Shown here piece after piece: positions 3,544 to 35,139 of a stretch of 35,139 nt of DNA. Both the position numbers and the translations under genes were made by a program. The notes under the pieces were generated by a model, which ran no database searches, had not been told where the DNA came from, and was given only the letters and a program-made list of their open reading frames with translations. How positions within the stretch are numbered: the first letter of the stretch is position 1; each line of letters opens with the position of its first letter. Source of the DNA: a virus; UHGV virus genome UHGV-0098759, one strand, 5' to 3'.

Positions 3544-3579
3544 GCGGCCTAAATCGCCGTATAACGAACCAAACGCTTT

Positions 3580-3777: not shown

Positions 3778-3812
3778 ACAAAAAAGCGCCCACTAGAGGC
3801 GCTTTAATTTTA
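3778..3812. terminator. bidirectional terminator hairpin (AAGCGCC-CACTAGA-GGCGCTT flanked by A-run and T-run)
   Basis: Perfect 7-bp stem with A6 upstream and T-rich downstream, at the convergence of the plus-strand block and the minus-strand late and lysis genes. Confidence 0.6.
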
Positions 3813-4163: not shown

Positions 4164-4172
4164 ATTACCCCC

Positions 4173-4520: not shown

Positions 4521-4558
4521 GTTATACCTCCATAGGATTCTATGAGGGTATTTATTGA

Positions 4559-5242
4559 TTAAACGTATTTCATGCGCGATTTAATGTGCTTATTGATGTT
4601 TTCAAGCATCATTGCTTCATTGCTTTCCCACGATCCTAGCGTCGAATAACGAGTAGAAATTTTATCCGACTTAACGGCAACAATTCGCTTACTCTGTTTC
4701 TGGATGCGTTTCTCTAAGCGACGTTTTGCCACCGCCGATCCATTCTTAGCGCGTTTGGTTCGGGATTTCTTAGGCTTGTACTTCTTCATGATAAAAGTCC
4801 CTTCCTTGTTCTCTACCTTGATGAAGTTGCCGTTTTCGATGTTACGCATCATCTTACCGCCTTTGATGGCCTTAATGTTCCCGTGGGCGTCTAAGACCTT
4901 ACCGTTAGCGATTGGCACTAGCTTATTGATTTTGCCACCATCGAAATAGTGTTTCAGATAGTCGTCCTGACTACCGATCTTCTTGTCCTTATCCCTTGCG
5001 CCCTTGATGAAGATTTGGTGTCTCGTCCCTGATCGGTTCTTGTAGTTGGTATTACCTACAGCTTGCTGAGTCCATCGAGTAGGTCTATCAACATTCTTGT
5101 TAATCTTCTTCTGGAGTGCTCTGGAAGCAAAGATCGCCCCTTCCCCTATCGCCTTTTCGAATGTATCGGTTGCTTTATCAGTCCATTGGCGTAACGCTTT
5201 CTTAGTCCTTAGAGCGTTTCGTTTATTGGTACTGGTTGCCAT
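4559..5242 (-). CDS. hypothetical strongly basic protein
   Basis: ORF with RBS AGGGGG; Lys/Arg-rich throughout; function not recognised. Confidence 0.5.
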   Translation of the reverse strand: MATSTNKRNALRTKKALRQWTDKATDTFEKAIGEGAIFASRALQKKINKNVDRPTRWTQQAVGNTNYKNRSGTRHQIFIKGARDKDKKIGSQDDYLKHYFDGGKINKLVPIANGKVLDAHGNIKAIKGGKMMRNIENGNFIKVENKEGTFIMKKYKPKKSRTKRAKNGSAVAKRRLEKRIQKQSKRIVAVKSDKISTRYSTLGSWESNEAMMLENINKHIKSRMKYV

Positions 5243-5432
5243 GTTAGCCCCCTAATAACGAAAAGACCCCCGCCAGTGTCCTTAGCAATTGTTCATCCAC
5301 GGTCATAGCCGGGAGTTCAAGCCCAAAGGACGTTAGCAGAGGTCTAATAGCTACGTTATAAGTGAGGGCGACAATCAAGAGATAACCAAAATATTTCTTA
5401 AGTTTATTCTTCATATATTCACCCCTTTATTA

Positions 5433-5711
5433 TTATTTTTGTTTGAGTATGTCGAGAACTTGGTCAAATTTGGCGTCCATCGCAACCACTTTCTTCTCTA
5501 TACCGTGTAGTGTTTGTTCCATTTGGTAAACACGTTCAGCAATCTGAGTATGGTTATTCTGCATCGTCTCAAACTTCTGGTTTAACAATGCGTCGCTGGA
5601 TTCCAATTTAGATAACCTATTTTCAGTTGCTAATTGATTTCGGTGAAGTCTCCAAAGACCACCACAAATTAAGGCGATAACACCGATACCGCCATATATA
5701 ATTTCAGTCAT
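5433..5711 (-). CDS. membrane-anchored coiled-coil protein (holin- or i-spanin-like)
   Basis: N-terminal hydrophobic helix (IIYGGIGVIALICGGLW) followed by a coiled-coil-like segment; RBS GGGGG; lies between J and the lysis region. Confidence 0.45.
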   Translation of the reverse strand: MTEIIYGGIGVIALICGGLWRLHRNQLATENRLSKLESSDALLNQKFETMQNNHTQIAERVYQMEQTLHGIEKKVVAMDAKFDQVLDILKQK

Positions 5712-5816
5712 TACGCCCCCGATATTTTTATATAGTTTAATGGCAAAATTATTTAGATAAAAATAATCCCGCCTAACTCAAAAGAATTAAGCGGGATTTA
5801 TTATTAAAATTAAATT

Positions 5817-8800: not shown

Positions 8801-9563
8801 TGTTTTCAATTGGTACTGATAAACCATATTTTTCATTTGTTAGGTAGTGGAAAATCTGGTCCACGCCGTTAGTGCTAGCCTCAATAGCATTGGTTTCAAG
8901 GTTACGAATCTTTAACCCGCAAACGTCTACTGCTACCTGGCTATTTGGCTGGAGAATATCAACACCAGCAGCAAGAGATTTGTCATCACGACGTAACACA
9001 ATACACATGGTTGCAATGCCGTTACCCTTGAAAGCGTCGGTCCAGTCTGAGCCTAAATGACGTTTTGCCAGCGACAAAGCGGTGTTAGGATTCTTGCCCG
9101 TGCGGAACTCGACTTCTAATACTTTACGATATTCTTCTTTAATGTTGCCCTTATCGAGAATACCATCACGGATCGTCATGTTCTTACCAACAAGAACATT
9201 TTTATTATCAATAAAGAGTGCTTTGTAATGGTCGATTTCACCCTCGGCTACAGAGAAGATTTGCACTAGCTTATTGTTTTCTTGCTTAGAAACTGCTTTG
9301 TAAACACAGTTTGTGCCAGTGCGGGTAGTACCGAAAACGACTGGTATCACCGCTTTCGGATCGTTTGATGTTCCTAGTGTCACCGCATTATCTGGGCTTT
9401 GTACTTTAGGTGTTTTTGGTGCGCCTACAGTGGAAGCGATCAAGGTCATTGCACCAGCAGCCATACCGATAGCGACTGCGGTCATAACAGAAAATGTTGC
9501 AGCAGCAGCCATCCCAGCAGACGCACCAGCAATAACCGCGCCTACCAATATTTCAAATCCCAT
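5817..9563 (-). CDS. central tail fibre / host-specificity protein, lambda J-like
   Basis: 1248 aa; the C-terminal ~150 aa (...DHKFDRQIVIP...VIDMPAGKGAVTLTF...) aligns by eye with the lambda J receptor-binding C-terminus; sits after M/L/K-like genes; start overlaps the K-like stop (TAATG). Confidence 0.85.
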   Translation of the reverse strand: MGFEILVGAVIAGASAGMAAAATFSVMTAVAIGMAAGAMTLIASTVGAPKTPKVQSPDNAVTLGTSNDPKAVIPVVFGTTRTGTNCVYKAVSKQENNKLVQIFSVAEGEIDHYKALFIDNKNVLVGKNMTIRDGILDKGNIKEEYRKVLEVEFRTGKNPNTALSLAKRHLGSDWTDAFKGNGIATMCIVLRRDDKSLAAGVDILQPNSQVAVDVCGLKIRNLETNAIEASTNGVDQIFHYLTNEKYGLSVPIENINVDSFLKVRKQVRQMDLHSNGACDPNASFKENLTSLMQTFGGVMFESFGRITLKLDAPDIVKHTFNEDNIMMGKVSLKTGGTNGYFNTINAMYQEPSIDYSEQMLRYPADAENDATVRADGRIIAKDVEYRFVKSKDQIDKLASIERNKSRITQVISFMTTDAFTAEVWDVISVTYDELKLNNSLWRITAIDRSIDSGIAGMMTITATEYNSQVYTDLNYAATPDNRPSGLPDSMTVQKPTNFRIKATGETIYGKNVTLTWDAPEDFNRYGFQIDYRVSGSPNWIKLGQTSQQIFSVNALAKDRSYDYRVCAFGIIARSDWVELINQNPTVTYELPTPVIRIKNQGSTPGTFEGNDLIIEWENQQQLDVEINGETNKFSDLFEAYIIKVTNKAGKSIQYRTRDPESWTYTLDMNQFNGLSRQLTVEVSAKGYNNSESAPARLVAINPQHKPMKGFSARGGFNTAFVSWADDVEHDYAGSIIQYATDNTFSDARAVSTNSVSHTSFDIADGDYYIRGAHYDIFGMDDAVWSEPYFMSMKSTISWDDQDKEALEDLIGLQDRLDETIADAIAQAGANADAKIDAMHKQITTETGQTVQASADTLKSLITSGDQASATKIDQVKAELKGDITKEVSASATTLKQAIATSEAASASKIDQVRVEMDGKIAGVNQEADVKIDALKGTINSKYNLAVNADGRVAGIHMSATNDPAQPTKIIFTADKIAVAPQNGTDVCPFGIEGNKVYLDNAMIRNAAIGTAQINDAAITTAKIGNAAINSAKIQDGAITNAKIVNGAIDNAKIGNYIQSSNWNGSTGWHINKNGSATFMNATVKGNITADSGTLNNVTINSSCVIKGMLEATQVKGDFVKVIGKKFPHRQQNWPDGTVTVRVEDDHKFDRQIVIPAIHHNGSVRRGESSDHWDTCRLIVKKNGSVLYDRTATSGSMYTGVIDMPAGKGAVTLTFQVICDGVNNYNPSAYISDLTVMVTKKATTGITVS

Positions 9564-9982
9564 TATTCACCCCCGAATCTATAAACTTGTTCATAGTCAA
9601 TGTCTGAAACAGGAATGGTCATCCAGATACCATCTTCTTCAACGAGGCCATAACCGGAATAATGAGGAACTACGGAATAATAATTACGGTTTCCTAATTT
9701 GTGGGCTGTGACCAGTAAATCGCCGTCCTGTAAATCATCAGTGACTAATTTGAAATGTTTCTTAATTGGTTGAAGGATATTTGAATACCCGCTTAATTCT
9801 TTGCAGATTTTCAAGCCTTCTTCTTTAGTTGAATATTTTTTATAAAGAGAATTATATAGATCAGTGCCAGCGAGAATATCGATGATCTTACATGCAATTA
9901 AATTGCAATCATTCTCACCCTGAACGAACTCCTGACCTATTAAAGAATTGATGTAATCGGTGATAAGCCTAGTTTTTAGCAT
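9563..9982 (-). CDS. tail tip assembly protein, lambda K-like (possible NlpC/P60-type Cys)
   Basis: Position between the L-like and J-like genes; GGAGG RBS before ATG 9982 (track ORF extends to 10138 but overlaps the upstream gene); Cys in ENDCNLIACK. Confidence 0.55.
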   Translation of the reverse strand: MLKTRLITDYINSLIGQEFVQGENDCNLIACKIIDILAGTDLYNSLYKKYSTKEEGLKICKELSGYSNILQPIKKHFKLVTDDLQDGDLLVTAHKLGNRNYYSVVPHYSGYGLVEEDGIWMTIPVSDIDYEQVYRFGGE

Positions 9983-10028
9983 GTTGAATACCTCCATGCT
10001 GTTATTTACTAGGCTTAGGGAGAAGGGA

Positions 10029-10682
10029 TTATTTCTTCGATGAATGCCACCTGCTTTCTGATTGCCAGCGACCCGCCCTTGAGAAGAATAGATCGTTCTC
10101 GTTTCCAACATAGGAACGGTGGATACCATCGGAGGCATGACTACGAGCGTTTTTATCTAGAACTTCCCAGATACTATTAAGCTGAAATTCTGATTCGTTT
10201 TTACACTCATCATCTTCATGTTCGATGTTAATCCCGATGGAATCGACTACCCCACGGAAAACAGGGTAAGTGGTTTCAACTTTGCCCGTGTTGGGGTTAA
10301 GGAAAACCATCTCGATTTTCACATCTGATTTATCGAATTGCTTGTTACGAATCAGGGTAATGTATTCTTCGCGAACGTTAGAAACAGTTACGTTGATCCC
10401 GTTGTTGTTGATCTCCTTCTCTTCGGTATTCGATGAGATTTGAAGAAAATCACCCGTTGCGAGATATGTAAAACCGTTATAGTCCAAATCGAAATACCCA
10501 TCTGTAAGCCGTAGAACGTCCCCTGACGCTGTTATCACTTCGATAATGTGAAACATCGATCCAGTGGAGAAAAGCTGCGGTAGCGTCAATCTAGACACAT
10601 TCTGACCTGTCTGGTCGTTGTAGACCTCGATGAAGTCCAGATTAGTGCATAGTTTGCTGAATGATTCCTGAATAGTTGCCAT
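10029..10682 (-). CDS. minor tail protein, lambda L-like
   Basis: Synteny; start MATIQ at 10682 overlaps the upstream stop (TAATG). Confidence 0.5.
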   Translation of the reverse strand: MATIQESFSKLCTNLDFIEVYNDQTGQNVSRLTLPQLFSTGSMFHIIEVITASGDVLRLTDGYFDLDYNGFTYLATGDFLQISSNTEEKEINNNGINVTVSNVREEYITLIRNKQFDKSDVKIEMVFLNPNTGKVETTYPVFRGVVDSIGINIEHEDDECKNESEFQLNSIWEVLDKNARSHASDGIHRSYVGNENDLFFSRAGRWQSESRWHSSKK

Positions 10683-14421: not shown

Positions 14422-14466
14422 TATTGTTTCCTCATTAATAGTGATTACGCTGTATTTATTTAGAAT

Positions 14467-25223: not shown

Positions 25224-27137
25224 TTAAAAGTTATTTACCCACCCACCACGACGCACAGGACGCGCCATAGGACGACGATTAGGTTTGTGATGAGTGATTG
25301 GCTTAGTTTCTTCGATTTGCTCGTTAGAATGTGATTTAGGAGCTTCTACGGTTGCTTCTGGTTCACGATTCAGCTTTTCTTTCATTGCAATGAGCTTATC
25401 CCATGACATTTTTGAAAGAACATAGCGAGAAGCCGCATAGCTATAAACCAGACAGTCGAGCGCCTCGTTTCGTGTCGCACCTGGATTTTTTACCCAACGT
25501 GTTCCAGTAACAGTACGCTTGATGGATTCACTCAAAAGCTGATCGAGATAATCATCAGGAACGGTTTCTGATATCTCTAAACCAATATGAGGGTTTTCTT
25601 TCAAGTTGCGTGTTAATAGCTCACGAATAGCCGTTTTACCCACGTTAACGCCCAACATAAGCAATTCATGACCACCCGTGGTAGTTGGTTTCACCGGAAT
25701 GATTGGAGCAGTACCAGATGAACTACCTTTGATTGCGTGTAAGTTCTTCCACTTACCACCGCAAATACGGTATCCGGCTTGAGTGAATCGACCGTTCGAT
25801 GTATCAAGGAAGCTGGCGAGCATAGGAACACGATCACCCGATACAGTAGTAAATTTGGTTTTATGGAAGTTGATTAATCTGTCCCATACAGGAGATTCAT
25901 ATCGTTCACAGTTATGGTCGTAAAAGCTGCGATGATCCAGAATATAAATCTTATCCTTTGCCACGCCCATGATCGTAGTTTCTGCGCGATCTAATTGCTG
26001 GTCAGTACCCGCACACAAGAAAATCACGTCATCAGGGATATTCTCGATAGAAACATCTGTTTTGAGTTGTTCCAGTTCATTTGCTTCTACTGCCGTGTCC
26101 TGATCGTCGTATACCTTACCTAACACTGTGTTATAAAATGATTGTAAATCAAAGGATTGCCACGCATGACTAAAATCAACCACACAAGCGCGGATACTAC
26201 TGAAAGGTGAATACAGACGGCTGATCCAGAATCCTGCTACTTCACTTTCACGGGTTGCTCTCCACTCGCCTTGCGCTACTGCCCTGATTCGTTCCCCTTC
26301 TGTCCATGATTGCTTACAGTGGGGGCAAATATAACGAGCGGTATCAGGATCGGGTAAGTTCTTACCATCGATGTTACGCCATTCAAATTGAACGTTTTCC
26401 CACTCGATCACCTGGTGTTCCCCGCAATGAGGACACGGAACAAAAAACATACGCATATCACTTGATAACCATTGCTGGTTAATGATTCCCAGCTTATTGG
26501 TTGGGGTACTAGAAACAATCAATCGAGCTTCATCACCAAAGGTAGTTAAACGGTTTGCAGTTAGTGCCACCGGACAACCTTCTTCGGTGATTGTTGCTGC
26601 GTCGCATTCGTCTACAATCCCTAACTTGGCAGTACGCCCACGCAAACTTGAAGGACTGGTCAAAGAAACCATGTAAAGGAAATGGTTTGTTTTTAGCTGA
26701 ATCTGGTTATTGTTGTTTACCGCATTACGATCATTCTTATCTGTTACCACTTCCTGTAATGCCGGACATGCTTCAATAGAAGGACGGATCTTAGTATTCA
26801 AGTACATAGCCACTTCTTTAGCGGTACTTTGCCCGATAATGATATTGCACGGATCGTTTGCCATCTGGTTAAACATGATCCCTGACATGATGGTCGTCTT
26901 TCCGATCTGCGCACTCGTACAAAAAACGTACTTCTTTTTCTTCTCAAGGAAAGGAGCATCAATCATGCCTTTCTGAAATGACAGTAATTTAACTTTATCC
27001 CCAGCACGAGGACCATCGACTAGCGTTAGATTCGCTTCGCACCATTCAGAAGGAAGGAGTTTAGGCGGTGGCGTAATATATTTGGCTGCATTTCTGAGAA
27101 TCTTTTTTAATTTGGCCTTATTAGAAATCAGTTTCAT
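25224..27137 (-). CDS. terminase large subunit, lambda A-like
   Basis: 637 aa; CPHCGEHQ and [14 protein letters not shown] motifs match the corresponding lambda large-terminase segments as recalled; RBS GAGGG. Confidence 0.9.
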
Positions 27138-27225
27138 GTAATTACCCTCATTACGAAATATGAAGGTATTTATTAAATTGTTGATATTTTGATAAATACG
27201 GGTATTAAGATTTAAGGGGGGGTGT

Positions 27226-27312
27226 ATGCTAATTAATCAGCAAGAAAGAGATGAATTAGAATTAGCCTTGTCTTGTCTTGTCTTGTCTTGTCTTGTCTTG
27301 TACCGATCATGA
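27226..27312 (+). CDS. 29-codon leader ORF with strong RBS that reads through the (CTTGT)7 repeat and stops at TGA
   Basis: ATG at 27226 preceded by AAGGGGGGG; frame is +1 out of register with the long downstream ORF; the repeat tract lies inside it. Confidence 0.35.
27267..27301 (+). repeat. perfect pentanucleotide tandem repeat (CTTGT)x7
   Basis: Read directly: cttgt repeated seven times from 27267 to 27301, at the 5' end of the 191-aa ORF. Confidence 0.95.
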
Positions 27313-27853
27313 ATATCGTTTGCCAGTAAAACATAAGCACTTAAAGACCGACTACACAACATCTGGCTTTAGTCGTGAGGAAGCTAAACAGATTTTAATC
27401 GAGTTGTATCGTGATAATGGGTATACCGATATTCATAACTTCTTTAAGAAGCATCGCACATCACAGACAGAGTTTCAGCGAGTCCGTGAGTGGTTTGATT
27501 TTGACATTAAGCGATTCTATCGAGTAGATGACGGTCCTATCTATCGGTTGCAGTGGACACCGATCAGGGAAGTGCTTAAACAGAAGAGATTGAATCATGC
27601 CATTACACGCTATCGTAACGTGGCTTTTAAGAAAGACTATGGTGATACAAGAGAACTATTCGTTGAACTCGCTAACGTGAAGTACAGCCACTATTACAAC
27701 GATCCTAAGTCCTTCTTTGAAGTGCTTCGCAAGGTTGATATAAGTCGGGGTACATATTATTCACGGTTGAAGAAGTACGGGATTAAGGTTGAGTTCTTTA
27801 TGTCAGTTGACGATGGAGAACTTTTTCCTATAAAATCTAAGTCCTCTAAATAA
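27278..27853 (+). CDS. tandem-HTH protein with two resolvase-type HTH-like modules; start codon uncertain
   Basis: Track ORF starts at TTG within the repeat; no in-frame ATG for about 175 codons; C-terminal module (GTYYSRLKKYGIKVEFFMSVDDGELFPI) is paralogous to the 86-aa and 60-aa proteins. Confidence 0.5.
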   Translation: MSCLVLSCTDHEYRLPVKHKHLKTDYTTSGFSREEAKQILIELYRDNGYTDIHNFFKKHRTSQTEFQRVREWFDFDIKRFYRVDDGPIYRLQWTPIREVLKQKRLNHAITRYRNVAFKKDYGDTRELFVELANVKYSHYYNDPKSFFEVLRKVDISRGTYYSRLKKYGIKVEFFMSVDDGELFPIKSKSSK

Positions 27854-27882
27854 AGGTGAACATTCACTTTAATTTGGAGAAA

Positions 27883-28116
27883 ATGACTATGACTACTAAA
27901 GCTACTCGCGGTCGTCCTGCCCGTTTTAATCGTGAACAACTGGCATACATTTGCTACGAGTTTTACAAAGCTGGCAAGGGTAAAGAAAGCAGAGAGAAAG
28001 TATTAAACGATCTGGGCATCTCCACCGCCCAGTTTTATAAAAGTATGAAGAAACTTAATGTCGAGTTCTTTATACGTGTAGACGGTGGAGAGGTTGTACC
28101 AATCAACGGAGTTTGA
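27883..28116 (+). CDS. small resolvase-type HTH DNA-binding protein (paralogue)
   Basis: ATG at 27883 with GGAGA RBS; TRGRPARF...GISTAQFYKSMKKLNVEFFIRVDGGEVVPI resembles the resolvase C-terminal HTH; track ORF begins at GTG 27856. Confidence 0.55.
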   Translation: MTMTTKATRGRPARFNREQLAYICYEFYKAGKGKESREKVLNDLGISTAQFYKSMKKLNVEFFIRVDGGEVVPINGV

Positions 28117-28125
28117 TTCTCATTG

Positions 28126-28150
28126 CCACTCTTCGGAGTGGCTTTTTTAT
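28126..28150 (+). terminator. intrinsic terminator with UUCG tetraloop (GCCACUC-UUCG-GAGUGGC, then U6)
   Basis: Perfect 7-bp stem, UUCG loop and T6 run immediately after the 86-aa gene. Confidence 0.7.
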
Positions 28151-28164
28151 ACCTATAGAAAACA

Positions 28165-28194
28165 AAAAGCCCCTGAAATTCAGGGGCAAAAATT
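28165..28194. promoter_or_regulatory. palindrome GCCCCTGAA-A-TTCAGGGGC containing one copy of the TTCAGGGGCAAAAAT iteron
   Basis: Perfect 9-bp inverted repeat whose right arm is identical to the iteron unit of the 30541-30716 array; lies between convergent genes. Confidence 0.5.
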
Positions 28195-28195
28195 A

Positions 28196-29038
28196 TTACA
28201 GTCCGAAGTGTTCCAGTGATCCAGCATTCTGACGAATCAGCAAAGCAGTATTATTGACGATTGCTCGTGAGTTATTCGGCTGTGGCAATTTCAAAGTTGC
28301 GGCCTTTTCTTCTTCAAGCAATCCGAGTTTTACGAGATGCGGGATAGCATCAGCAGTGAACTCGATCTGACCGTGTGCCGACATACGAGCGAACATATAG
28401 CCAGGAGGAAGCAGATCATAGCCTTTAGGCTTACCAGAATCATCCAGACGACGCTCAAGAACACCAGCAGCACATAAACCTTTCAGAATCATTTGTACCT
28501 TCGTAGAGCCTCGTTTTTCGCCTAATAAGCGGCTAAGACTGTGTGTGTCGATAGCTTTACGAACATGCAATTCAACCAGACGTTTGTTTTCGCGGGTTTT
28601 CTCTAATGCCAGTTCGATCCAATCGGTTTCTTCAAAGTGTTCATATGGATTAACCGGAACATTAGCTTTACCTTCTTTCATCAAACGCCATTCTTTAGCA
28701 ATTTTGAAGCGAAGCGGTGCATCGTATCCCATAACCAGAGTATTACAGAGATCTTCATCCAGTTCATACATCGGTTTATTACGATTCAGAGAATCTTTAT
28801 AAGTCGTTTCTTTATAAAAACCGATGGGCGCAAAATTGCGCTCATCTCCTCCGACCAGTTTGCTACCCTTTTCAAGTGAATCAACCATATTACGAAAATC
28901 ACGCATAACATCTTTATGATTCTTTCCGGTTAATTCCGCGATCTGCAAAGTAGACATGGTCAGCGGTTTGGTGTTATCAACAACCAGAGACACGGAAGCA
29001 GGTTTAATAGCAGTATTCATAGTAGTAACAGTATTCAT
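28196..29038 (-). CDS. Rha-family phage regulatory (antirepressor-like) protein
   Basis: N-terminal segment LTMSTLQIAELTGKNHKDVMRDFRNMV matches the conserved Rha N-terminal domain pattern as recalled; RBS AAGGGGG. Confidence 0.65.
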   Translation of the reverse strand: MNTVTTMNTAIKPASVSLVVDNTKPLTMSTLQIAELTGKNHKDVMRDFRNMVDSLEKGSKLVGGDERNFAPIGFYKETTYKDSLNRNKPMYELDEDLCNTLVMGYDAPLRFKIAKEWRLMKEGKANVPVNPYEHFEETDWIELALEKTRENKRLVELHVRKAIDTHSLSRLLGEKRGSTKVQMILKGLCAAGVLERRLDDSGKPKGYDLLPPGYMFARMSAHGQIEFTADAIPHLVKLGLLEEEKAATLKLPQPNNSRAIVNNTALLIRQNAGSLEHFGL

Positions 29039-29127
29039 AGTAAAATCCCCCTTAAACGGTTTAGTGATGATCCTCCTAGTTCCGGCATCACTACCGGAAC
29101 AATTTTATTTATAAAGAAATTTTTATC

Positions 29128-29274
29128 TCATTTAGATTCAGCAATCGCGCGATCAATTTCTTCTTGAATGCGACGCTGGCGTTCATGGAAGTCAACCATT
29201 GAGAAATTCAGGTTTGGGGTCCACGGTTTGCGGTTCGGGTTTTTGCGTCCATCAATTTTCTTAGTAGCGTTCAT
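29128..29274 (-). CDS. possible 48-aa basic small protein
   Basis: ATG at 29274, stop TGA at 29128-29130; below the track cutoff; weak RBS; sits between the promoter and the Rha gene. Confidence 0.25.
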   Translation of the reverse strand: MNATKKIDGRKNPNRKPWTPNLNFSMVDFHERQRRIQEEIDRAIAESK

Positions 29275-29332
29275 AATTAACATTCCATTTACAAATCTAG
29301 GTCAAATAGATTCATAGTTGTCAAGTGCGATA

Positions 29333-29361
29333 ATCATAAAAAAGTTAGAAATTTTTGTCAA
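29333..29361 (-). promoter_or_regulatory. near-consensus sigma70-type promoter on the minus strand (TTGACA-N17-TATGAT)
   Basis: Minus-strand -35 TTGACA (plus 29356-29361) and -10 TATGAT (plus 29333-29338) with a 17-nt spacer, upstream of the Rha gene. Confidence 0.55.
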
Positions 29362-29396
29362 TACCCCTTGACAAGACACCAAAGGGTTGACCTAAC

Positions 29397-29864
29397 TTAC
29401 AGCATATCTAAGCCTTCGTCGTAACCGTAGAAGCCATTCTGAGAAGAAAAACAGATTGGTGCGTAGTCGTCGTCATCTTCGTCTTGTTCATCTTCTTCTG
29501 GGGCTTCCTGAGCGGTTTCTTTACCGTAGTTAAACATTGCTTCATCCAGTTCATAGACAGTAACGAAGCTACCCAGATCAATGTCACCGGAACGGACTTG
29601 AAACGGCAGATCATCACGAACAATAATTGCTGGTAGATTCTGGTACTTTAAGCGTTCTTCATCGGTGAAGACGTTAACAACAATGGTCGGCTTCTTATTA
29701 CGGCAAAACGCATACCATGCACTAGAGAAATGGGATTCATCAGAGTTGAAAAGGATGTTATAACCACGTTCACGGAACATCTTCATTAACTTGTCATTGT
29801 GGAAGCTATCAGAATCCAGACCCAGAAGGATAAAAGGAGTAGTGGTAGTCATTTTATGGTTCAT
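29397..29864 (-). CDS. hypothetical protein with strongly acidic C-terminal tail
   Basis: ORF with GAGGA RBS; C-terminus EAPEEDEQDEDDDDYAP is highly acidic; no domain recognised. Confidence 0.5.
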   Translation of the reverse strand: MNHKMTTTTPFILLGLDSDSFHNDKLMKMFRERGYNILFNSDESHFSSAWYAFCRNKKPTIVVNVFTDEERLKYQNLPAIIVRDDLPFQVRSGDIDLGSFVTVYELDEAMFNYGKETAQEAPEEDEQDEDDDDYAPICFSSQNGFYGYDEGLDML

Positions 29865-29988
29865 AGTGGAAATCCTCTAAAAGAAAGTGAATCAATCTAA
29901 TATTATTTATAAAGAGAAAATTCTTGTTATTATGAAAAGAGTGATCTGGTAGAGTCCAAAACTGGTCTGTACTTGAAAGGTGATTGGA

Positions 29989-30399
29989 TTCAGTCGGGCT
30001 AAAGCCCTCCTTCATAGATTTTGATTAAATCATCACCAAAACGAAGAAGTATCTTTAGAATATAAGAATCTTTCTTTTGAAGAAATAATAATCAGGAAGA
30101 AATTTAGCAACCGAAGGTTGCAATCCCGAAGGGATACCAATACCTTTCTAGAAAGTGATTGTTACTCACTTCGTTCGTTTACTAGAATCAGTTAGTAACT
30201 AGTTTAAAATCCCTTTCAAGAAAATCCTTTCAGAAGTGATTCTCGATGCCACGCAGTGGCGTCGCAGACGTTTGAGAGTGAGCGAAGCGAGCGAGCAAAC
30301 TAGTTAATTCCTTCTAAGACCATCTAGTATCATCTAGTTTAAATTAGTGTTACTAGAAGTAATTGGTTAGCGCTTCGCGCAGTCGGGCTACGCCCTCCT
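29989..30399. repeat. pair of 20-bp direct repeats (CAGTCGGGCTA[A]AGCCCTCCT and CAGTCGGGCTACGCCCTCCT) bracketing about 370 bp of ORF-free sequence
   Basis: Read directly at 29989-30009 and 30380-30399; the interval holds two adjacent GAA-loop hairpins (30106-30136) and short internal repeats (ACTAGTTTAAA, TTACTAGAA). Confidence 0.5.
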
Positions 30400-30540
30400 A
30401 ATATCTTTTTGGTTATTTGTTGTTTTTGGTTTTACACATGAGCGTAGCGAATGTGTTATATAATATCTATGCACGCCCAATTCCCCGTTTTTGCCCTCAC
30501 TAACTTAATGTTTTATAAAGAGTTTTTCTTACCAATCCTT

Positions 30541-30716
30541 TTCGGGGGCAAATTTCAGGGGCAAAAATTAGATTTTCAGGGGCAATTATTGGCATTTCAG
30601 GGGCAAAAATGAGGGGCAAAATCACTGTTTCCCAGAATTTCAGGGGCAAAAATAGTGGGTTTCAGGGGCAAAAATGGGATGTGAAATCTAGGGGATTTTG
30701 GTTCAGGGGCAATTTT
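30541..30716 (+). repeat. iteron array: about 8 direct copies of TTCAGGGGCAA(A/T)(A/T)AT at roughly 21-bp spacing
   Basis: Copies start at about 30541, 30554, 30575, 30596, 30612 (partial), 30639, 30661 and 30702; an inverted partial copy lies near 30485-30498. Confidence 0.8.
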
Positions 30717-30753
30717 CATAGTGTAGGGCTAGTGTAGGTTTGAAAGTCCTTTG

Positions 30754-30782
30754 TTGACACTGTGTAGGAACAGTGGTATAAT
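30754..30782 (+). promoter_or_regulatory. perfect-consensus sigma70 promoter with extended -10 (TTGACA-N17-TGgTATAAT)
   Basis: TTGACA at 30754-30759, 17-nt spacer, TATAAT at 30777-30782 preceded by TGG; directly downstream of the iterons and upstream of an AT-rich tract. Confidence 0.65.
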
Positions 30783-31233
30783 TGACAATTCGAGATAAAT
30801 ATGTTATAATATTTGTATTGAAAGTAAAAATTTACCGATTTTCCTTCCTATTGTTATTATCCTGTTAAATTGTTATATGTCTGTTAAGGTTTGGATCTGA
30901 GAGAAAATCCTGTAACAAATCTTTACAATTCATAGCTCAATTAATACTCACCGCTTTAGCAAAAAGTGCTATGCATTTTTCTAAATTGATTAAATATACA
31001 TCAATTTGGTTAAATCGCGTTCTTCGCTTTAGCAATTCGTGCTGTGGTTTAACACATTTAACACGCCTGATAACATCTGAATAACATTTTAACATATCTC
31101 TGTTATAAATACATATATAAGAGATAAATGTGAGGGGTTGAAAAATTAAAAAACAATCCCCGTATAAATAACAATGAGCGGTTAACGCTCTTTTTTTTAA
31201 GAAATAATTAATCCAGATTTAGGAGGATTCAAG

Positions 31234-31416
31234 ATGGCACGACCTGTTAAGTTCACTCGTGAAATCGTTTTAGAAATGGCAAAGCGTTATTTTGAACTGA
31301 CGCCTGATGTAGTGATTGGTGAATGGTTTAAAGGTGAAGGTATTGATCAATCAACCTTCCACAAACTCTTAAAGAAGTATGACATTAAAGTAAAGATAAC
31401 CGCAGAGGTTTACTGA
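31234..31416 (+). CDS. small resolvase-type HTH DNA-binding protein (paralogue)
   Basis: Strong RBS AGGAGG before ATG 31234; MARPVKFTRE...GIDQSTFHKLLKKYDIKV is paralogous to the 27883..28116 product. Confidence 0.6.
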   Translation: MARPVKFTREIVLEMAKRYFELTPDVVIGEWFKGEGIDQSTFHKLLKKYDIKVKITAEVY

Positions 31417-31455
31417 TACTTTGACTGAGAATTATATGATGGCTTTAAAAATAAA

Positions 31456-31490
31456 AAAGCCCCCTTGCGGCAACAAGGAGGCTTTTGCGA
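31456..31490 (+). terminator. stem-loop (GCCCCCTTG-CGGCAA-CAAGGAGGC) plus T-run after the 60-aa gene
   Basis: 9-bp stem with one mismatch, followed by TTTTGCG. Confidence 0.4.
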
Positions 31491-31528
31491 TGAACAATTA
31501 AAACTAACTTTCCACAGGAGTATTTATA

Positions 31529-32470
31529 ATGTTATTTTCCGCTAACTTTTTCACTAACGAAGTAACCAACGCTAAAGCAGTTATCAAATTTGGCACCGAA
31601 GCAAACAAGAAGATTCAGCCGAAAGTTGTTGCTCATGTTTCCTTTGCGCAGCAGAAATCCGCTTTCGCTGGCTTTAAAGCACATCGTGAAGCACTGATCG
31701 CGGCTGGCTTTGGTGTTGACGGTAAACTGCCTAACGGCATTCGTAAAGCAATCGACCGCGTTAAACCAGCTAAAGACGTTGCAGTAGACCACATCGTTAC
31801 CTTTACCGTTAAGAACTCTTCTGAACTGTTCCACCTGGTTATTGCTGGTGATACTGCTATCGTTTCCGCTCCTAACATGGATTTTCAGGATACCGCTGAT
31901 TGCCAGATCACCTTCGGTCGTCGTAAAGAAGTTACCGGAAAAGCTAAACTGAACTTCACTAAATCCGGCAATCCTTACTTTGCTGTATTCTTTAACAGCC
32001 ACGCTACCGAAAAAGAAGTTGTAGAACTGGTTGCTTATGAAGGTGAAGAGAAAGAACGTATTGAATCTTGCGAAGCATTTCTGGAACTGGAAGCACAGGT
32101 TAATGCTGTTTCTCCTGTTGTAGAAGATCGCTTTGCTGCACTGGAAGCACAGATCGCAGAACTGAAAGCTGCACTGGAAGAAAAAGACCAGATTATCGAA
32201 GCCCAGAAAGCTGAAATTGAAGAACTGAAAGCTAAAGAAGTTGCTCCGGTGGCAGTAGTTGAAAATGCGGCTGATGAGGCCGCAAATGATGAAGTAGAAG
32301 TGAAAATCGATGTGATGCGTGATCCGATGGCTGCACTGCAATTGCTTCGTTCTTTTAAGGGCAAATCTCATTTTTCTAGTGATGCGGTAGACGAGGAAGA
32401 AGAACAGAAACGCAATGCTGCAATGCTTCATGATGAAATGTACGGTACTAACTTTTCTTACTGCCAATAA
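31529..32470 (+). CDS. hypothetical protein with C-terminal coiled coil and acidic tail
   Basis: RBS AGGAG; codon choice visibly differs from neighbouring genes (CGT/CTG/GAA/AAA/GGT-rich); segment AALEAQIAELKAALEEKDQIIEAQKAEIEELKAKE; no domain recognised. Confidence 0.6.
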   Translation: MLFSANFFTNEVTNAKAVIKFGTEANKKIQPKVVAHVSFAQQKSAFAGFKAHREALIAAGFGVDGKLPNGIRKAIDRVKPAKDVAVDHIVTFTVKNSSELFHLVIAGDTAIVSAPNMDFQDTADCQITFGRRKEVTGKAKLNFTKSGNPYFAVFFNSHATEKEVVELVAYEGEEKERIESCEAFLELEAQVNAVSPVVEDRFAALEAQIAELKAALEEKDQIIEAQKAEIEELKAKEVAPVAVVENAADEAANDEVEVKIDVMRDPMAALQLLRSFKGKSHFSSDAVDEEEEQKRNAAMLHDEMYGTNFSYCQ

Positions 32471-32474
32471 AAAA

Positions 32475-32495
32475 GGGACTCCGAAGAGTCCCTAG
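32475..32495 (+). terminator. hairpin GGGACUC-CGAA-GAGUCCC downstream of the 313-aa gene
   Basis: Perfect 7-bp stem; weak U-tract, so it may be a stability element rather than a terminator. Confidence 0.4.
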
Positions 32496-32574
32496 TAAGT
32501 TTAGGTTAGGTTTGCACAACAAAGATGAGGTTATAATGAACATAATGCTACATTATTCTTTAAAGCCAGAAAAA

Positions 32575-32600
32575 TAACCGCCCCGAAGGGCGGGAGGATT
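32575..32600 (-). terminator. minus-strand terminator (CCGCCC-UUCG-GGGCGG followed by UUAUUUUUCU)
   Basis: Perfect 6-bp stem with a UUCG loop on the minus-strand reading, followed by a U-rich tract, downstream of the small membrane-protein ORFs. Confidence 0.5.
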
Positions 32601-32751
32601 AATACTCAATCTATACTTGTTATGTTTTTGTGTTGTATAGATCACTGACTATGAAAACACTGTACTGGAGTGTGTTTTATGGCTTTTAATCGGGAATCCT
32701 CAAAGAAGATCCCCTGTTAATAACCATAAGGAGAAAAGGCAGATTACACTA

Positions 32752-32925
32752 TTATTTAGTATCCTTTTTACAGCAACTAAAAAGAATAAACTGGATTAAG
32801 CATACCCAGCCGTAAGGCGTACCGATTAGAAATTTGAAAAACACCACCAGCGATATAAAAATCAATTTAATGCCAGCGACGATAGTCAAAAACAGCAGAG
32901 TAGCAAAGTAGACAAAAAGATCCAT
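32752..32925 (-). CDS. possible 57-aa membrane protein with two hydrophobic helices
   Basis: ATG at 32925 with RBS AGAGGA at 7 nt; hydrophobic segments FVYFATLLFLTIVAGIKLIFISLVVFF and GWVCLIQFILF; below the track cutoff. Confidence 0.4.
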   Translation of the reverse strand: MDLFVYFATLLFLTIVAGIKLIFISLVVFFKFLIGTPYGWVCLIQFILFSCCKKDTK

Positions 32926-32978
32926 AGATAATCCTCTTTGAAAACGACCATCATCTATAGTTCAATTCATCGATTTAA

Positions 32979-33080
32979 TTAATGATACTTGAAAGCGTTA
33001 CACACAGTAGAAATGCCAATGTGAGCAAGTGAATATACGATAGTTAATCCTACAGCCAGATAAATCAAAAATTCAACCAT
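32979..33080 (-). CDS. possible 33-aa hydrophobic peptide
   Basis: ATG at 33080 with RBS GAGGA at 7 nt; sequence MVEFLIYLAVGLTIVYSLAHIGISTVCNAFKYH. Confidence 0.35.
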   Translation of the reverse strand: MVEFLIYLAVGLTIVYSLAHIGISTVCNAFKYH

Positions 33081-33180
33081 AGGTAAATCCTCAAATAAGA
33101 AAAAGGTTAGCGGGGGATGTTCTCCCCCGTAGACGTTGACCAGCTCAACATCCTTCACGTATATATTTAGTATCTAATTT

Positions 33181-33735
33181 TTAAGACACATCAAATTCAT
33201 CGTCTTCTTCTGGTTCTTGTTCCGGTTCATCCATTAATGCTAATTCTTCTTCCTCGTCTTCTCCCAAATCTGCATTTTCGAACAAGTCCCCTACTTCATT
33301 TAAACGACGTTCGATGATCTCCCTTAGCTTATTCTTCAATGTTTTCTGATCAGTGGCGGATTCTAAAATTTCTAGGGCATCGATCGTACAAATCTGCAAA
33401 ATAGTCTGTTTCACTTTCCCGCAGTATTCCGCTAGTTCCTGTTCTACATAACCGACAGGAATCAGGAGATTCATTTTTTCCTGGTTCTCTCGTTCGGCTG
33501 CATCTGCCAAAGCACGTTCACGGCGTAATTTCTCTACGTCGATTTGTTCTTTGATAGAAGTTTGTTTAAGCGGGTTGATAATATTTTTCAAGACCCATTC
33601 TGTTCCTTCTTTGGCTGGCACGCGGCGGGTATTGGTGTTAAATGGCAATCCCCTTTCTAACCATCGCTTACCGCCACCATTCAATGTATAGCCATATAAA
33701 CGGGAAATTTCTGTAAGGGTTAATTCTTCTTTCAT
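33181..33735 (-). CDS. putative terminase small subunit (Nu1-like HTH) or HTH DNA-binding protein
   Basis: N-terminal HTH pattern (LTEISRLYGYT...W...GLPF) and GGGK segment resemble the lambda Nu1 N-terminus; coiled middle; very acidic C-terminus; RBS GGAGG. Confidence 0.4.
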   Translation of the reverse strand: MKEELTLTEISRLYGYTLNGGGKRWLERGLPFNTNTRRVPAKEGTEWVLKNIINPLKQTSIKEQIDVEKLRRERALADAAERENQEKMNLLIPVGYVEQELAEYCGKVKQTILQICTIDALEILESATDQKTLKNKLREIIERRLNEVGDLFENADLGEDEEEELALMDEPEQEPEEDDEFDVS

Positions 33736-33854
33736 TGGTTATCCTCCATTAAATTTGCGTAATTTTATTTATTGGTTTTACGCACAATCTAAGCGCCTAA
33801 ATCGCATTCTAACGAAGGGAAAGATCCAGTAATGGTAAGGGTTAGGAAGTGGGT

Positions 33855-33900
33855 TAATAGTCGCGTAGCGACCGCGCCATAAGTGAAGTGATCACGTTTT
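33855..33900. other. GC-rich island with imperfect dyad symmetry (GTCGCGTAGCGAC, GCGACCGCGCC, GTGATCAC) upstream of the terS-like gene; candidate cos or packaging site
   Basis: Local GC-rich symmetric motif in an AT-rich divergent intergenic region; shares GCGACC with the lambda cohesive end as recalled. Confidence 0.2.
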
Positions 33901-34093
33901 AGAATCTCACACGCACATCAAATACCGGGGTGCCGAAAACTCCCTTTATTTCATCCGTGGAACAGTACCTTTTTAATTTGTCAAGCATTAATTTCTTAAT
34001 TTAATTACTAAATCTCATCCCAATAATTGAAAAAATATCAAAAATCAATAAAGTAAGCATCTAAAAGTCAGTCCATACCAAAAGAGGTATAAA

Positions 34094-34888
34094 ATGAAAA
34101 ACATTATCGCTGCTATCGTTCTTTCTGCTACTGCATTCGGTGCTAATGCTGCATCCTTCGATTGCACTAAAGCTACTACCAAATCAGAGAAGTTTATTTG
34201 TGCTAATGAGTCAATCTCCGCACTGGACTCTAAACTTCATGAAGTATATGTTAAGGCTGTTAAGATTGATCCGTCGCTTAAACAAGAGCAACGCAACTGG
34301 AATAAAACTGTTCGTGATACAATGATCAATATCGGGCAGATTCAGCCACTGGAGGCTGTATACAACGCTCAAATCCAAAACTTGATGGATGTATTATCTA
34401 AAGAAGAAACCGCGTCAGAAAGCGATTCAGAGACTTCTGCGAAGGTTGAAGAAGAACAACCGAAGGCAGTAGAAACTCTAAAAACCAAAGAGAAACAAGT
34501 TGTTCTGGAAAAGTCCCCAAATAGCAACTTCGTATATATTTGTCCGAAAGTAGTTAAGATAACCACAATTGACGGACTGAGTGTAGAAGATCGTGATATA
34601 GTGAAAGAAAACACAAAAATTGTAATCGATAAAAACAAAGACAAGGCAAAACTTCTAATTTCTGGAACGATGCACCCCCCAGTTGTAGTGGAAATGAATA
34701 TTGACGCTGATGGATTCATGTCAAAAACTACAAAAACTGGTGTAGAGTTATACGCACAACACGGAAAAACATATTCCGGTGATAAGATGGTTGATGATGT
34801 AAGAACACTGGACTATCATCATATTTATGTTGACAACCGTACCGGAAAGGAAATCGAATGGAAATATTCTTGTGTAGAGAAAAAATGA
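34094..34888 (+). CDS. secreted protein with LprI-like (lysozyme-inhibitor-like) N-terminal domain
   Basis: Signal peptide MKNIIAAIVLSATAFGANA, then SFDCTKATTKSEKFICANESISALDSKLHEVY matching the LprI-type pattern as recalled; signal peptide resembles that of the 1119..1538 product. Confidence 0.55.
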   Translation: MKNIIAAIVLSATAFGANAASFDCTKATTKSEKFICANESISALDSKLHEVYVKAVKIDPSLKQEQRNWNKTVRDTMINIGQIQPLEAVYNAQIQNLMDVLSKEETASESDSETSAKVEEEQPKAVETLKTKEKQVVLEKSPNSNFVYICPKVVKITTIDGLSVEDRDIVKENTKIVIDKNKDKAKLLISGTMHPPVVVEMNIDADGFMSKTTKTGVELYAQHGKTYSGDKMVDDVRTLDYHHIYVDNRTGKEIEWKYSCVEKK

Positions 34889-35052: not shown

Positions 35053-35139
35053 TTTTTAGTTATTTTGGGTTGACTACATTCGGGTTGCCAATTCGCCTGG
35101 CTAACTCTTGCTGAGTGATTTCTGACTGTAAAAAAGCAT

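What the first reader, a model, noticed from the sequence alone, without database searches (positions are those of the whole stretch)
25224..33735. Small-terminase-like gene lies about 6 kb from the large terminase gene, separated by a regulatory and origin-like island
The only Nu1-like HTH protein with an acidic C-terminus is at 33181..33735 on the minus strand, whereas terL is at 25224..27137. No small ORF sits directly upstream of terL. Between them are plus-strand HTH genes, the Rha-like gene, the iteron region and a codon-distinct 313-aa gene. This is either an unusual split of the packaging module by an inserted accessory island, or the 184-aa protein is not terS and the true small subunit is unrecognised.
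Basis: inference. Interest (0 to 1): 0.5.

Follow-up and report, generated by a model that had tools for sequence, protein, structure and literature searches.

The report
Small terminase gene detached from large
In this E. coli prophage the DNA-recognition subunit of the packaging enzyme is a real lambda-type small terminase. Its gene sits 6 kb from its partner gene, with the phage's whole early-control and replication region in between, and this unusual layout is conserved across a lineage of enterobacterial prophages.

Summary
The window is a complete ~35-kb prophage inserted in E. coli hicB.

**Identity.** The 184-aa protein (33181-33735, minus strand) is a divergent member of the lambda gpNu1 small-terminase family.
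- It matches PHROG 57 at E = 6e-11.
- Profile searches reach Pfam Phage_Nu1 and the gpNu1 structures.
- A profile comparison gives 99.9% probability against homologues that overlap gpA-type terL genes.
- No other terS candidate was found.

**Layout.** terL (25224-27137) starts 6,043 bp downstream.
- The split is not a recent insertion. In at least 44 related loci, with terS 37-100% identical (hosts identified: E. coli, Salmonella, Proteus), terL lies 4.4-8.6 kb downstream of terS.
- In 15 sister loci, with terS 29-35% identical (including Serratia and Pantoea), the two genes abut.
- The intervening DNA is the phage's only early region: a Rha regulator, three paralogous small proteins, and iterons that co-occur strictly with the 313-aa gene.

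**Transcription and cos.** terS has its own terminated transcription unit. It is preceded by a conserved 250-nt leader carrying a GC-rich dyad, which is a plausible but unproven cos site.

**Verdict.** This is an unusual, conserved gene-order variant of a known packaging system, of moderate interest.

The parts
33181..33735 (-). terS: 184-aa small terminase subunit of the lambda gpNu1 family. It has a winged helix-turn-helix at residues 1-40, helical domains at 41-154, and an acidic tail at 158-184.
33736..33985 (-). Conserved 250-nt non-coding leader upstream of terS. This is the candidate cos region and terS control region.
   Evidence: It is conserved in all E. coli relatives whatever moron or attachment site lies beyond it. 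No sigma-70 consensus promoter is predicted in it.
33853..33877 (.). Invariant GC-rich block containing the dyad GTCGC-GTA-GCGAC (33860-33872), about 125-140 nt upstream of the terS start. This is the candidate cosN.
   Evidence: It is invariant while both flanks vary between E. coli subgroups. Function is inferred by analogy with the lambda order cosN - cosB - Nu1. It has not been mapped.
33756..33784 (.). Dyad TGCGTAA-N15-TTACGCA, enclosing an ATAAATA box (33766-33772), just upstream of the terS ribosome-binding site. This is a candidate terS-binding site (cosB-like) or an operator.
   Evidence: It is retained in the Salmonella relative and in a second subgroup despite divergent surroundings.
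32474..32593 (-). Two intrinsic-terminator-like hairpins that end the terS transcription unit.
   Evidence: sites at 32593-32578 and 32493-32474.
32752..33158 (-). Two small membrane-like ORFs (59 and 57 aa) downstream of terS in the same unit. Relatives carry one 94-aa gene here.
   Evidence: No family match.
31529..32470 (+). 313-aa protein with a coiled coil and an acidic tail. It is the candidate iteron-binding or replication protein.
   Evidence: It is present in exactly the 11 compared loci that carry CAGGGGCAA iteron arrays (window copy L001, L003 and nine IMG/VR loci) and absent from those that lack them. No family hit.
31234..31416 (+). 60-aa protein, a paralogue of the C-terminal modules of the genes at 27226-27853 and 27856-28116.
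30754..30810 (+). Two tandem perfect sigma-70 consensus promoters (TTGACA-17-TATAAT).
30540..30720 (.). Iteron array of at least six copies of TTTCAGGGGCAAAAAT, spaced 21, 22 or 43 bp apart. This is the probable replication origin and is not the terS site.
29397..29864 (-). 155-aa acidic protein of unknown function.
28196..29038 (-). Rha-family regulator or anti-repressor, with its own promoter (29361-29333) and terminator (28187-28169).
   Evidence: Pfam Phage_pRha at 5.7e-17. PHROG 63 and others. Signals.
27856..28116 (+). 86-aa paralogous small protein, followed by a terminator at 28125-28142.
27226..27853 (+). Conserved ~200-aa gene transcribed divergently from terL. Here it is thrown out of frame by (CTTGT)7 at 27267-27301.
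27138..27225 (.). 88-nt conserved divergent intergenic region holding the start of the late (terL) operon. An ATAAATA box lies at 27167-27173.
   Evidence: No sigma-70 consensus promoter is predicted.
25224..27137 (-). terL: 637-aa gpA-type large terminase, the first gene of the head-tail-lysis operon.
   Evidence: Pfam GpA_ATPase 1.3e-55 and GpA_nuclease 3.1e-45. PHROG 15 at 6e-135.

Best explanation
The 184-aa protein is the phage's genuine small terminase subunit, of the lambda gpNu1 type. It works in trans with the gpA-type large subunit encoded 6 kb away.

In this lineage of enterobacterial temperate siphophages, the unit made of the non-coding leader plus terS lies on the far side of the whole early, regulatory and replication region from terL. 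It sits next to the attachment site. So terS is a short transcription unit of its own, closed by intrinsic terminators, while terL heads the long head-tail-lysis operon.

Proposed mechanism:
- The N-terminal winged helix of terS binds sites in the conserved 250-nt leader directly upstream of its own gene.
- The conserved helical C-terminal half and acidic tail recruit terL, whose first ~17 residues are basic and unusually conserved.
- terL nicks at a nearby GC-rich dyad to make cohesive ends.
- DNA is packaged from there through terS and onward.

Shown: the family identity of terS, the absence of another terS, and the clade-wide conservation of the split. Predicted from consensus scans only: the separate terminators. 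Inferred: the position of cos, the terS-terL contact surfaces, and co-regulation of the two genes.
For: **Identity**
- PHROG 57 terS, E = 6e-11, covering residues 24-172.
- hmmsearch with the family profile finds 230 relatives. All 72 full-length relatives aligned hit PHROG 57, 52 hit PHROG 141 (terS), and 34 hit Pfam Phage_Nu1, best 6e-20.
- That wider profile hits gpNu1 structures 6hn7_B (6e-15), 1j9i (3e-13) and 7lw0.
- The close-family profile against lambda Nu1 residues 1-98 gives hhalign probability 82%.
- BFVD structure hits include annotated small terminases.

**Orthology by position**
- Homologues at 29-35% identity overlap or abut gpA-type terL, with gaps of -16 to +47 nt in the 13 IMG/VR loci and gene calls that overlap terL in the Serratia and Pantoea loci.
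- They align to the window's family at 99.9% probability, E = 1e-35, over residues 4-154.

**Constraint**
- dN/dS is 0.06-0.22.

**Split conserved**
- terL lies 4.4-8.6 kb downstream on the same strand in every locus where terS is 37% or more identical and enough flank was available. Identified hosts are E. coli, Salmonella and Proteus; most other loci are IMG/VR contigs of unidentified host.

**Separate units**
- Terminators lie at 32593-32474 after terS and at 28187-28169 after Rha. No sigma-70 promoter is predicted before terS or terL.
- A shared ATAAATA box lies 30-45 nt upstream of both genes in most of the divergent lineages examined: clear upstream of terS in seven of nine, further upstream or truncated in the other two (L004, L033); exact in five of eight terL regions and a near-variant in three.

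**Candidate cos**
- The 250-nt leader is conserved regardless of what lies beyond it, with an invariant GC-rich dyad.
- A non-coding stretch of 144-800 nt precedes terS throughout the split clade, against only 88 nt before terL in the window.

**Iterons excluded as the terS site**
- They co-occur with the 313-aa gene, not with terS alleles.
Against: - The window protein itself has no Pfam or NCBIfam hit. Its link to Nu1 is transitive or relies on PHROG.
- The lambda Nu1 loop GGGKGNE is absent.
- No cohesive end has been mapped. Contig ends in public assemblies never coincide with the dyad.
- The ATAAATA box is not enriched in the window as a whole: 14 copies against 12 expected.
- terS and terL alleles reassort. 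Prophages with terS 89% or more identical pair with terL alleles that are 55% or 87% identical. That is unexpected if the two subunits co-evolve tightly.
- No isolated phage of this lineage exists in the phage collection, so activity of the prophage is unproven. One near-identical copy has a broken portal gene.
Confidence: 0.8

Rival explanations
1. The 184-aa protein is terS, but cos is not next to it. The packaging site lies upstream of terL or elsewhere, and terS acts at a distance from its own gene.
For: cos was not mapped. The terL-proximal intergenic region is strongly conserved. Nothing forces cos to travel with terS.
Against: Only 88 nt separate terL from the divergent gene, and there is no GC-rich patch there apart from a C-run. 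The iterons track the 313-aa gene, not terS. In both the split and the adjacent clades, a long non-coding stretch with a local GC-rich patch precedes terS in most loci examined, as in lambda (PMC4669245).
Confidence: 0.2
2. The 184-aa protein is not a packaging subunit. It is a MerR/Xis-type DNA-binding regulator or excisionase that sits near the attachment site, for example the directionality factor for the serine recombinase.
For: The N-terminal fold is shared with MerR and excisionase proteins. Of 72 relatives, 27 also hit PHROG 66 (excisionase/regulator) and 5 hit HTH_17. Weak excisionase hits appear. The gene lies near attR, and no directionality factor is identified in the prophage.
Against: Homology to terS families runs over the whole length, including the C-terminal half, which excisionases lack. 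Distant homologues overlap terL. No other terS exists for a gpA-type terL that needs one.
Confidence: 0.05
3. The split is a recent accident: an accessory island inserted into, or a rearrangement of, a decaying prophage.
For: The 313-aa gene and the LprI gene behave as exchangeable cassettes. The conserved ~200-aa gene is frameshifted here.
Against: The same order recurs in at least 44 loci across several genera, at 37-100% terS identity, with intact genes. The interval holds the only regulators and origin-like elements of the 35-kb genome. terS is under purifying selection.
Confidence: 0.03

Closest known systems
Phage lambda terminase: gpNu1 (TerS) and gpA (TerL) acting at cos
   Same: terL has both gpA Pfam domains. 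terS shares the winged helix-turn-helix DNA-binding domain and the overall length and helical architecture of gpNu1. A non-coding region with a GC-rich element precedes terS, as cosN and cosB precede Nu1 (PMC4669245).
   Different: The genes are 6 kb apart in separate transcription units, instead of being adjacent and co-transcribed. The protein falls below the Pfam Phage_Nu1 threshold. It lacks the GGGKGNE loop of lambda Nu1. No lambda-like cosN sequence is present, and cos is unmapped.
Sister prophages with terS adjacent to terL: Serratia L152, Pantoea L153 and IMG/VR loci L051-L063
   Same: They have the same terS family (99.9% hhalign), a gpA-type terL, a ~160-aa head-tail joining gene and a Phage_portal_2 portal. 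Where the flank reaches that far, they also carry an S78 protease family hit. At least one has a large serine recombinase.
   Different: terS overlaps or abuts terL. In the one locus where gene content shows it (L152), the recombinase and other non-structural genes lie upstream of terS rather than between the two genes.
Phage P2/186 and phage T7 (from my own knowledge, not tested here)
   Same: These are precedents for terminase subunit genes that are not neighbours. P2 gene M (small) and gene P (large) lie in divergent operons. T7 genes 18 and 19 are separated by 18.5 and 18.7.
   Different: In those phages the intervening genes are structural or lysis genes spanning about 1-3 kb. Here the whole early, regulatory and replication module is interposed. 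Their terminase families also differ from Nu1/gpA.
RppC of Gram-negative phage-inducible chromosomal islands (PDB 6hlk, 6hn7)
   Different: Rpp proteins are encoded by satellites that lack terL and capsid genes, and they act by binding a helper's TerS. This element has its own terL, portal, capsid, tail and lysis genes and no second terS.

Membership tests
Lambda-type small terminase (gpNu1; Pfam PF07471; PHROG 57) | Sequence match to the family profile | tested here: inconclusive
   PHROG 57 is met at 6e-11. Pfam Phage_Nu1 gives no hit for the window protein. However, 34 of 72 profile-linked relatives hit it, best 6e-20, and the wider profile hits gpNu1 structures at 1e-13 to 1e-15.
Lambda-type small terminase (gpNu1; Pfam PF07471; PHROG 57) | N-terminal MerR-like winged helix-turn-helix DNA-binding domain | tested here: met
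Lambda-type small terminase (gpNu1; Pfam PF07471; PHROG 57) | Helical self-association region and C-terminal terL-binding region | tested here: inconclusive
   Long helices at 41-154 are modelled with high confidence. The C-terminal half is nearly invariant in the family. Oligomerisation and terL binding could not be tested.
Lambda-type small terminase (gpNu1; Pfam PF07471; PHROG 57) | Gene immediately upstream of, and co-transcribed with, the gpA-type terL | tested here: not met
   There is a 6,043-bp gap with terminators in between. The feature is met only in homologues at 35% identity or less.
Lambda-type small terminase (gpNu1; Pfam PF07471; PHROG 57) | A gpA-type large subunit in the same genome | tested here: met
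   GpA_ATPase 1.3e-55 and GpA_nuclease 3.1e-45.
Lambda-type small terminase (gpNu1; Pfam PF07471; PHROG 57) | Binds repeated sites (cosB) next to the nicking site cosN, upstream of its gene | not testable with these tools
   Only candidates were found: the conserved leader, the GC-rich dyad at 33860-33872, and TGCGTAA-N15-TTACGCA at 33756-33784. Assembly ends gave no support.
Lambda-type small terminase (gpNu1; Pfam PF07471; PHROG 57) | Glycine-lysine loop (GGGKG) of lambda gpNu1, linked to its ATP site (my own knowledge) | tested here: not met
   In the hhalign alignment the loop is replaced by NTNTR with a 5-residue deletion.
PICI Rpp (redirecting phage packaging) proteins | Encoded by a satellite that lacks its own terL and capsid and depends on a helper TerS | tested here: not met
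   The element encodes terL, portal, protease-capsid, tail and lysis genes and has no second terS.
Excisionase / AlpA / MerR-type small regulators | A short protein consisting essentially of one winged helix-turn-helix | tested here: not met
   The protein is 184 aa, with a conserved 110-residue helical C-terminal part homologous to terS proteins. Only the first ~50 residues resemble these regulators.

The most novel reading that the evidence does not exclude
The leader-plus-terS unit sits beside the attachment site as a self-contained, separately regulated 'packaging-specificity cassette'. On this reading the Nu1-like protein also acts at the neighbouring attachment site, for example as the directionality factor of the large serine recombinase, and so couples excision to the start of packaging. 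The evidence does not exclude this. The protein's DNA-binding domain is of the excisionase/MerR type. No directionality factor is recognisable in the 35 kb. The gene keeps its place near the prophage end in most relatives examined.
Probability: 0.06. Interest if true: 0.7.

Novelty: new variant of a known kind. Interest (0 to 1): 0.36.

Why it matters
- **Annotation.** Finding small terminases usually leans on their position just upstream of terL. Here that rule fails. In the two copies whose annotation was read in full the gene is labelled 'hypothetical protein', and every listed row of the 63-genome search shows the same label. A lineage-specific profile now identifies it.
- **Biology of the enzyme.** The case shows that a lambda-type terminase tolerates full transcriptional uncoupling of its two subunits over long evolutionary time.
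- **Modularity.** The DNA-recognition part (leader plus terS) and the motor (terL) reassort independently.
- **Genome design, if cos lies where proposed.** The virion chromosome would be nearly colinear with the prophage, and no operon would cross either cos or att. That differs from lambda.
- **Practical use.** The layout bears on predicting packaging sites and transduction by these prophages, which occur in about 1% of complete E. coli genomes.

Tried and rejected
- **Direct family and structure searches with the single protein.** Pfam, NCBIfam and a PDB sequence search gave nothing useful.
- **First structure model.** It was built from 16 sequences and reached pLDDT 69. Foldseek gave only weak MerR and BldC hits. 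A deeper alignment fixed this.
- **Phage collection.** tblastn of terS found no relative. The best terL hit was 43% identical, in an odd 141-kb record.
- **Genome collection.** The scan with the terS alignment confirmed nothing. Alignment A2 was too diverse to seed a scan.
- **Iterons as the terS site (cosB).** Rejected. The CAGGGGCAA arrays occur in exactly the 11 compared loci that carry the 313-aa gene and in none of the others, although terS is 89-100% identical in both groups.
- **Mapping cos from contig ends.** Contigs of 35-38 kb and all metagenome contigs carrying the leader end at positions unrelated to the GC-rich dyad.
- **Shared promoter between terS and terL.** Only a short ATAAATA box emerged. 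It is conserved across lineages but not enriched in the window.
- **Homologue search for the 313-aa protein.** The 120 hits listed are all near-identical unnamed proteins.
- **Rfam and tRNA scans.** Nothing found.
- **Literature.** Full-text searches found no description of this prophage lineage or of a Nu1/gpA split.

Full report
**What the window is.** The 35,139 bases are one complete prophage.
- It is 100% identical to a segment of two E. coli chromosomes (NZ_CP074033 and NZ_CP195351).
- The annotated copy is flanked by the two halves of a split hicB gene. A large serine recombinase lies near the left end, at window 1587-3281.
- Reading right to left on the minus strand, the late genes run from terL through head-tail joining, portal, a protease-capsid fusion and tail genes to an M15 endolysin.

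**Checking the observation.**
- The 184-aa ORF (33181-33735, minus strand) and the 637-aa ORF (25224-27137, minus strand) exist as stated.
- The second ORF carries both gpA terminase domains: GpA_ATPase 1.3e-55 and GpA_nuclease 3.1e-45.
- They are 6,043 bp apart.
- No minus-strand ORF of 61 aa or more lies upstream of terL before the Rha gene. That space is filled by two conserved plus-strand genes.

**Is the 184-aa protein a small terminase?**

*Sequence evidence*
- Alone, it hits no Pfam or NCBIfam model. It does match PHROG 57 'terminase small subunit' at 6e-11 over residues 24-172.
- Its close family (73 clusters from E. coli, Salmonella and Proteus) is mostly labelled 'hypothetical', with three labelled 'terminase small subunit'.
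- A profile of 16 family members, searched against 1.8 billion representative proteins, found 230 relatives.
- Of 72 full-length relatives, all hit PHROG 57, 52 hit PHROG 141 (also terS), and 34 hit Pfam Phage_Nu1, best 6e-20.
- The profile of these 72 hits the solved lambda-type TerS DNA-binding domains: 6hn7_B at 6e-15, 1j9i at 3e-13 and 7lw0 at 2e-12.
- The close-family profile aligns to lambda Nu1 residues 3-66 with 82% probability. The lambda GGGKGNE loop is missing.

*Structure evidence*
- With the deeper alignment, AlphaFold gives a confident model (pLDDT 89). It shows a winged helix-turn-helix at 1-40, long helices to residue 154 and a disordered acidic tail.
- BFVD hits include annotated small terminases.

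*Constraint and alternatives*
- The gene is under purifying selection, with dN/dS 0.06-0.22.
- None of the other unassigned ORFs in the prophage matches any terS family.

**Synteny gives the decisive argument.** I collected loci around terS homologues from public genomes, IMG/VR and metagenomes. I then located terL in each by tblastn. The result is a clean dichotomy.
- *Split clade.* Wherever terS is 37-100% identical to the window's and enough flank exists (at least 44 loci), terL lies 4.4-8.6 kb downstream on the same strand. Hosts identified for these loci are E. coli, Salmonella and Proteus; most others are IMG/VR contigs of unidentified host. Cluster names place further relatives in Hafnia, Citrobacter and Rahnella. 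The Hafnia-cluster contig examined carries no terL within the 5 kb downstream of terS.
- *Adjacent clade.* Wherever terS is 29-35% identical (13 IMG/VR loci, plus a Serratia and a Pantoea prophage), terS abuts or overlaps terL (gaps of -16 to +47 nt in the 13 IMG/VR loci).
- The adjacent-type proteins align to the window's family at 99.9% probability (E = 1e-35, residues 4-154).
- So the 184-aa protein is the positional orthologue of a canonical small terminase. The separation arose once and has been kept.
- This rules out both a misidentified terS and a recent insertion.

**What lies between the two genes.** The interval is the only early region of this 35-kb genome. It contains:
- a conserved ~200-aa gene and an 86-aa gene on the plus strand;
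- a Rha-family regulator with its own near-consensus promoter and terminator;
- a 155-aa acidic protein;
- a 1.2-kb non-coding stretch with at least six phased iterons and two tandem perfect sigma-70 promoters;
- a 60-aa protein and the 313-aa protein.

The three small plus-strand proteins are paralogues.

The iterons do not belong to terS.
- Arrays of CAGGGGCAA occur in exactly the 11 compared loci that carry the 313-aa gene and in none of the others.
- Meanwhile terS is 89-100% identical in both groups, and the 60-aa, 155-aa and Rha alleles assort independently.
- A Salmonella relative has different iterons at the same place (TATCCCTAG, about ten copies at 11-bp spacing) together with a 330-aa gene.
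- This fits an origin-plus-initiator cassette. The biochemical role of the 313-aa protein remains unknown.

**Transcription units.**
- terS is followed by two small ORFs and then two terminator-like hairpins, at 32593-32578 and 32493-32474.
- The Rha unit ends at 28187-28169. terL must therefore start a new unit in the 88-nt conserved intergenic region it shares with the divergent ~200-aa gene.
- Neither terS nor terL has a predicted sigma-70 consensus promoter, unlike the early genes.
- Both have an ATAAATA box 30-45 nt upstream of the start codon. Across the divergent lineages of the split clade examined it is clear upstream of terS in seven of nine, and further upstream or truncated in the other two (L004, L033). 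Upstream of terL it is exact in five of eight and a near-variant in three.
- I read this as a hint of common, activator-dependent late control. The box is not enriched in the window overall, so the hint is weak.

**Where is cos?** Cohesive-end packaging is expected for a gpA/Nu1 enzyme. In lambda, TerS must bind cosB right beside cosN, just upstream of Nu1 (PMC4669245).

*Evidence from this lineage*
- The 250 nt upstream of terS (33736-33985) are conserved in all E. coli relatives, whatever moron or attachment site follows.
- Within this leader, the block 33853-33877 is invariant while its flanks vary. It contains the GC-rich dyad GTCGC-GTA-GCGAC.
- A second dyad, TGCGTAA-N15-TTACGCA (33756-33784), survives in Salmonella.
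- All split-clade members keep 144-800 nt of non-coding DNA before terS, against 88 nt before terL in the window.

*Assessment*
- I consider cos upstream of terS the most likely arrangement, at about 55-60%.
- It is unproven. No assembly ends at the dyad.

**How it most likely works.**
- terS is made from its own unit and binds its leader through the variable N-terminal domain.
- Its nearly invariant C-terminal half and acidic tail recruit terL. The first 17 residues of terL ([16 protein letters not shown]) are identical even between terL alleles that are otherwise 55% identical.
- terL nicks at the dyad, and packaging proceeds through terS, the early region and then the late genes.
- With att only a few hundred bases to about 1.3 kb beyond the leader, the virion map would be almost colinear with the prophage map, and no operon would cross cos or att.
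- These steps are inference.

**Comparison and novelty.**
- The system works like lambda terminase, and the protein belongs to the Nu1 family in the broad sense.
- It fails three criteria: the Pfam threshold, the lambda glycine-lysine loop, and the defining gene adjacency.
- Non-adjacent terminase genes are known in P2/186 and T7 (my own knowledge), but there only structural or lysis genes intervene.
- I found no description of a Nu1/gpA pair separated by a whole early region, nor of this prophage lineage. No cultured relative is in the phage collection.
- The lineage is present in 63 of 5,426 complete E. coli genomes.
- I rate it a new variant of a known kind, of moderate interest.

Noticed in passing
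window 27226-27853, repeat at 27267-27301: The conserved ~200-aa gene divergent from terL carries a pentanucleotide tract, (CTTGT)n. The window has 7 copies, the near-identical prophage in NZ_CP195351 has 6, and L016 has 9. All three are out of frame, with a stop after 28-37 codons. More than 30 relatives have 0-2 copies and an intact 197-203-aa ORF. This could be a slipped-strand on/off switch or repeated inactivation of a core regulator.
   Followed up: partly
window 30754-31198: Two tandem perfect sigma-70 consensus promoters (TTGACA-17-TATAAT, at 30754-30782 and 30782-30810) point into about 370 nt with no plus-strand ORF. This stretch ends at a terminator-like hairpin (31176-31190) just before the 60-aa gene. 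It may be a leader or a non-coding RNA. No Rfam family matches.
   Followed up: no
window 34088-34464 (within the LprI-like gene 34094-34888): The first ~377 bp of the lysozyme-inhibitor-like moron are 95-97% identical in DNA to a hypothetical gene of RB49-like T4-type phages (Krischvirus: RB49, Phi1 and others). This indicates recent gene exchange between a temperate prophage and virulent phages. PHROG 14799 matches at 1e-110.
   Followed up: no
window 30540-30720 and 31529-32470; L005 13419-13700: The iteron type and the downstream ~313-330-aa gene change together between relatives. CAGGGGCAA arrays go with the 313-aa gene in 11 of 11 loci. TATCCCTAG repeats at 11-bp spacing go with a 330-aa gene in Salmonella. 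The 60-aa gene lying between them assorts independently. A half-iteron also forms the terminator-like palindrome after Rha (28169-28198).
   Followed up: partly
window 25224-27137 and loci L011-L034: Among E. coli prophages whose terS is 89-100% identical, terL falls into two allele classes, about 55% and about 87% identical to the window's. The portal stays above 90% identical in nearly all of them. The first 17 terL residues are identical across the two classes. This suggests mosaic exchange within the packaging module.
   Followed up: partly
window 1-70 and 35080-35139; L003, L004, L005: The prophage splits the hicB antitoxin gene. Relatives sit in ycdX or next to a PHP-domain gene (E. coli, Proteus), next to ghrA (Salmonella), or in a transporter gene (a contig from the Hafnia-type terS cluster). 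Members of the lineage carry large serine recombinases.
   Followed up: partly
L001 6024-7648 (NZ_CP195351): In the otherwise near-identical prophage of strain 24AR0357, the portal gene is annotated as two separate CDS. It is one intact 503-aa ORF in the window. Some copies of this prophage are therefore decaying.
   Followed up: no
L068 (PQ671644.1, positions 1-10611): The record of Escherichia phage DCP80, classified as a 141-kb T4-like Straboviridae phage, begins with a gpA-type terL 43% identical to this one. The terL is followed by lambda-like head genes. The record is possibly a chimeric assembly.
   Followed up: no
window 4549-4555, 14453-14459, 27167-27173, 29904-29910, 33766-33772 (minus strand): An ATAAATA box lies 30-45 nt upstream of several minus-strand gene starts: 4520, 14421, terL, the 155-aa gene and terS. 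It resembles the T4 late-promoter core TATAAATA (my own knowledge). It is not enriched in the window overall.
   Followed up: partly
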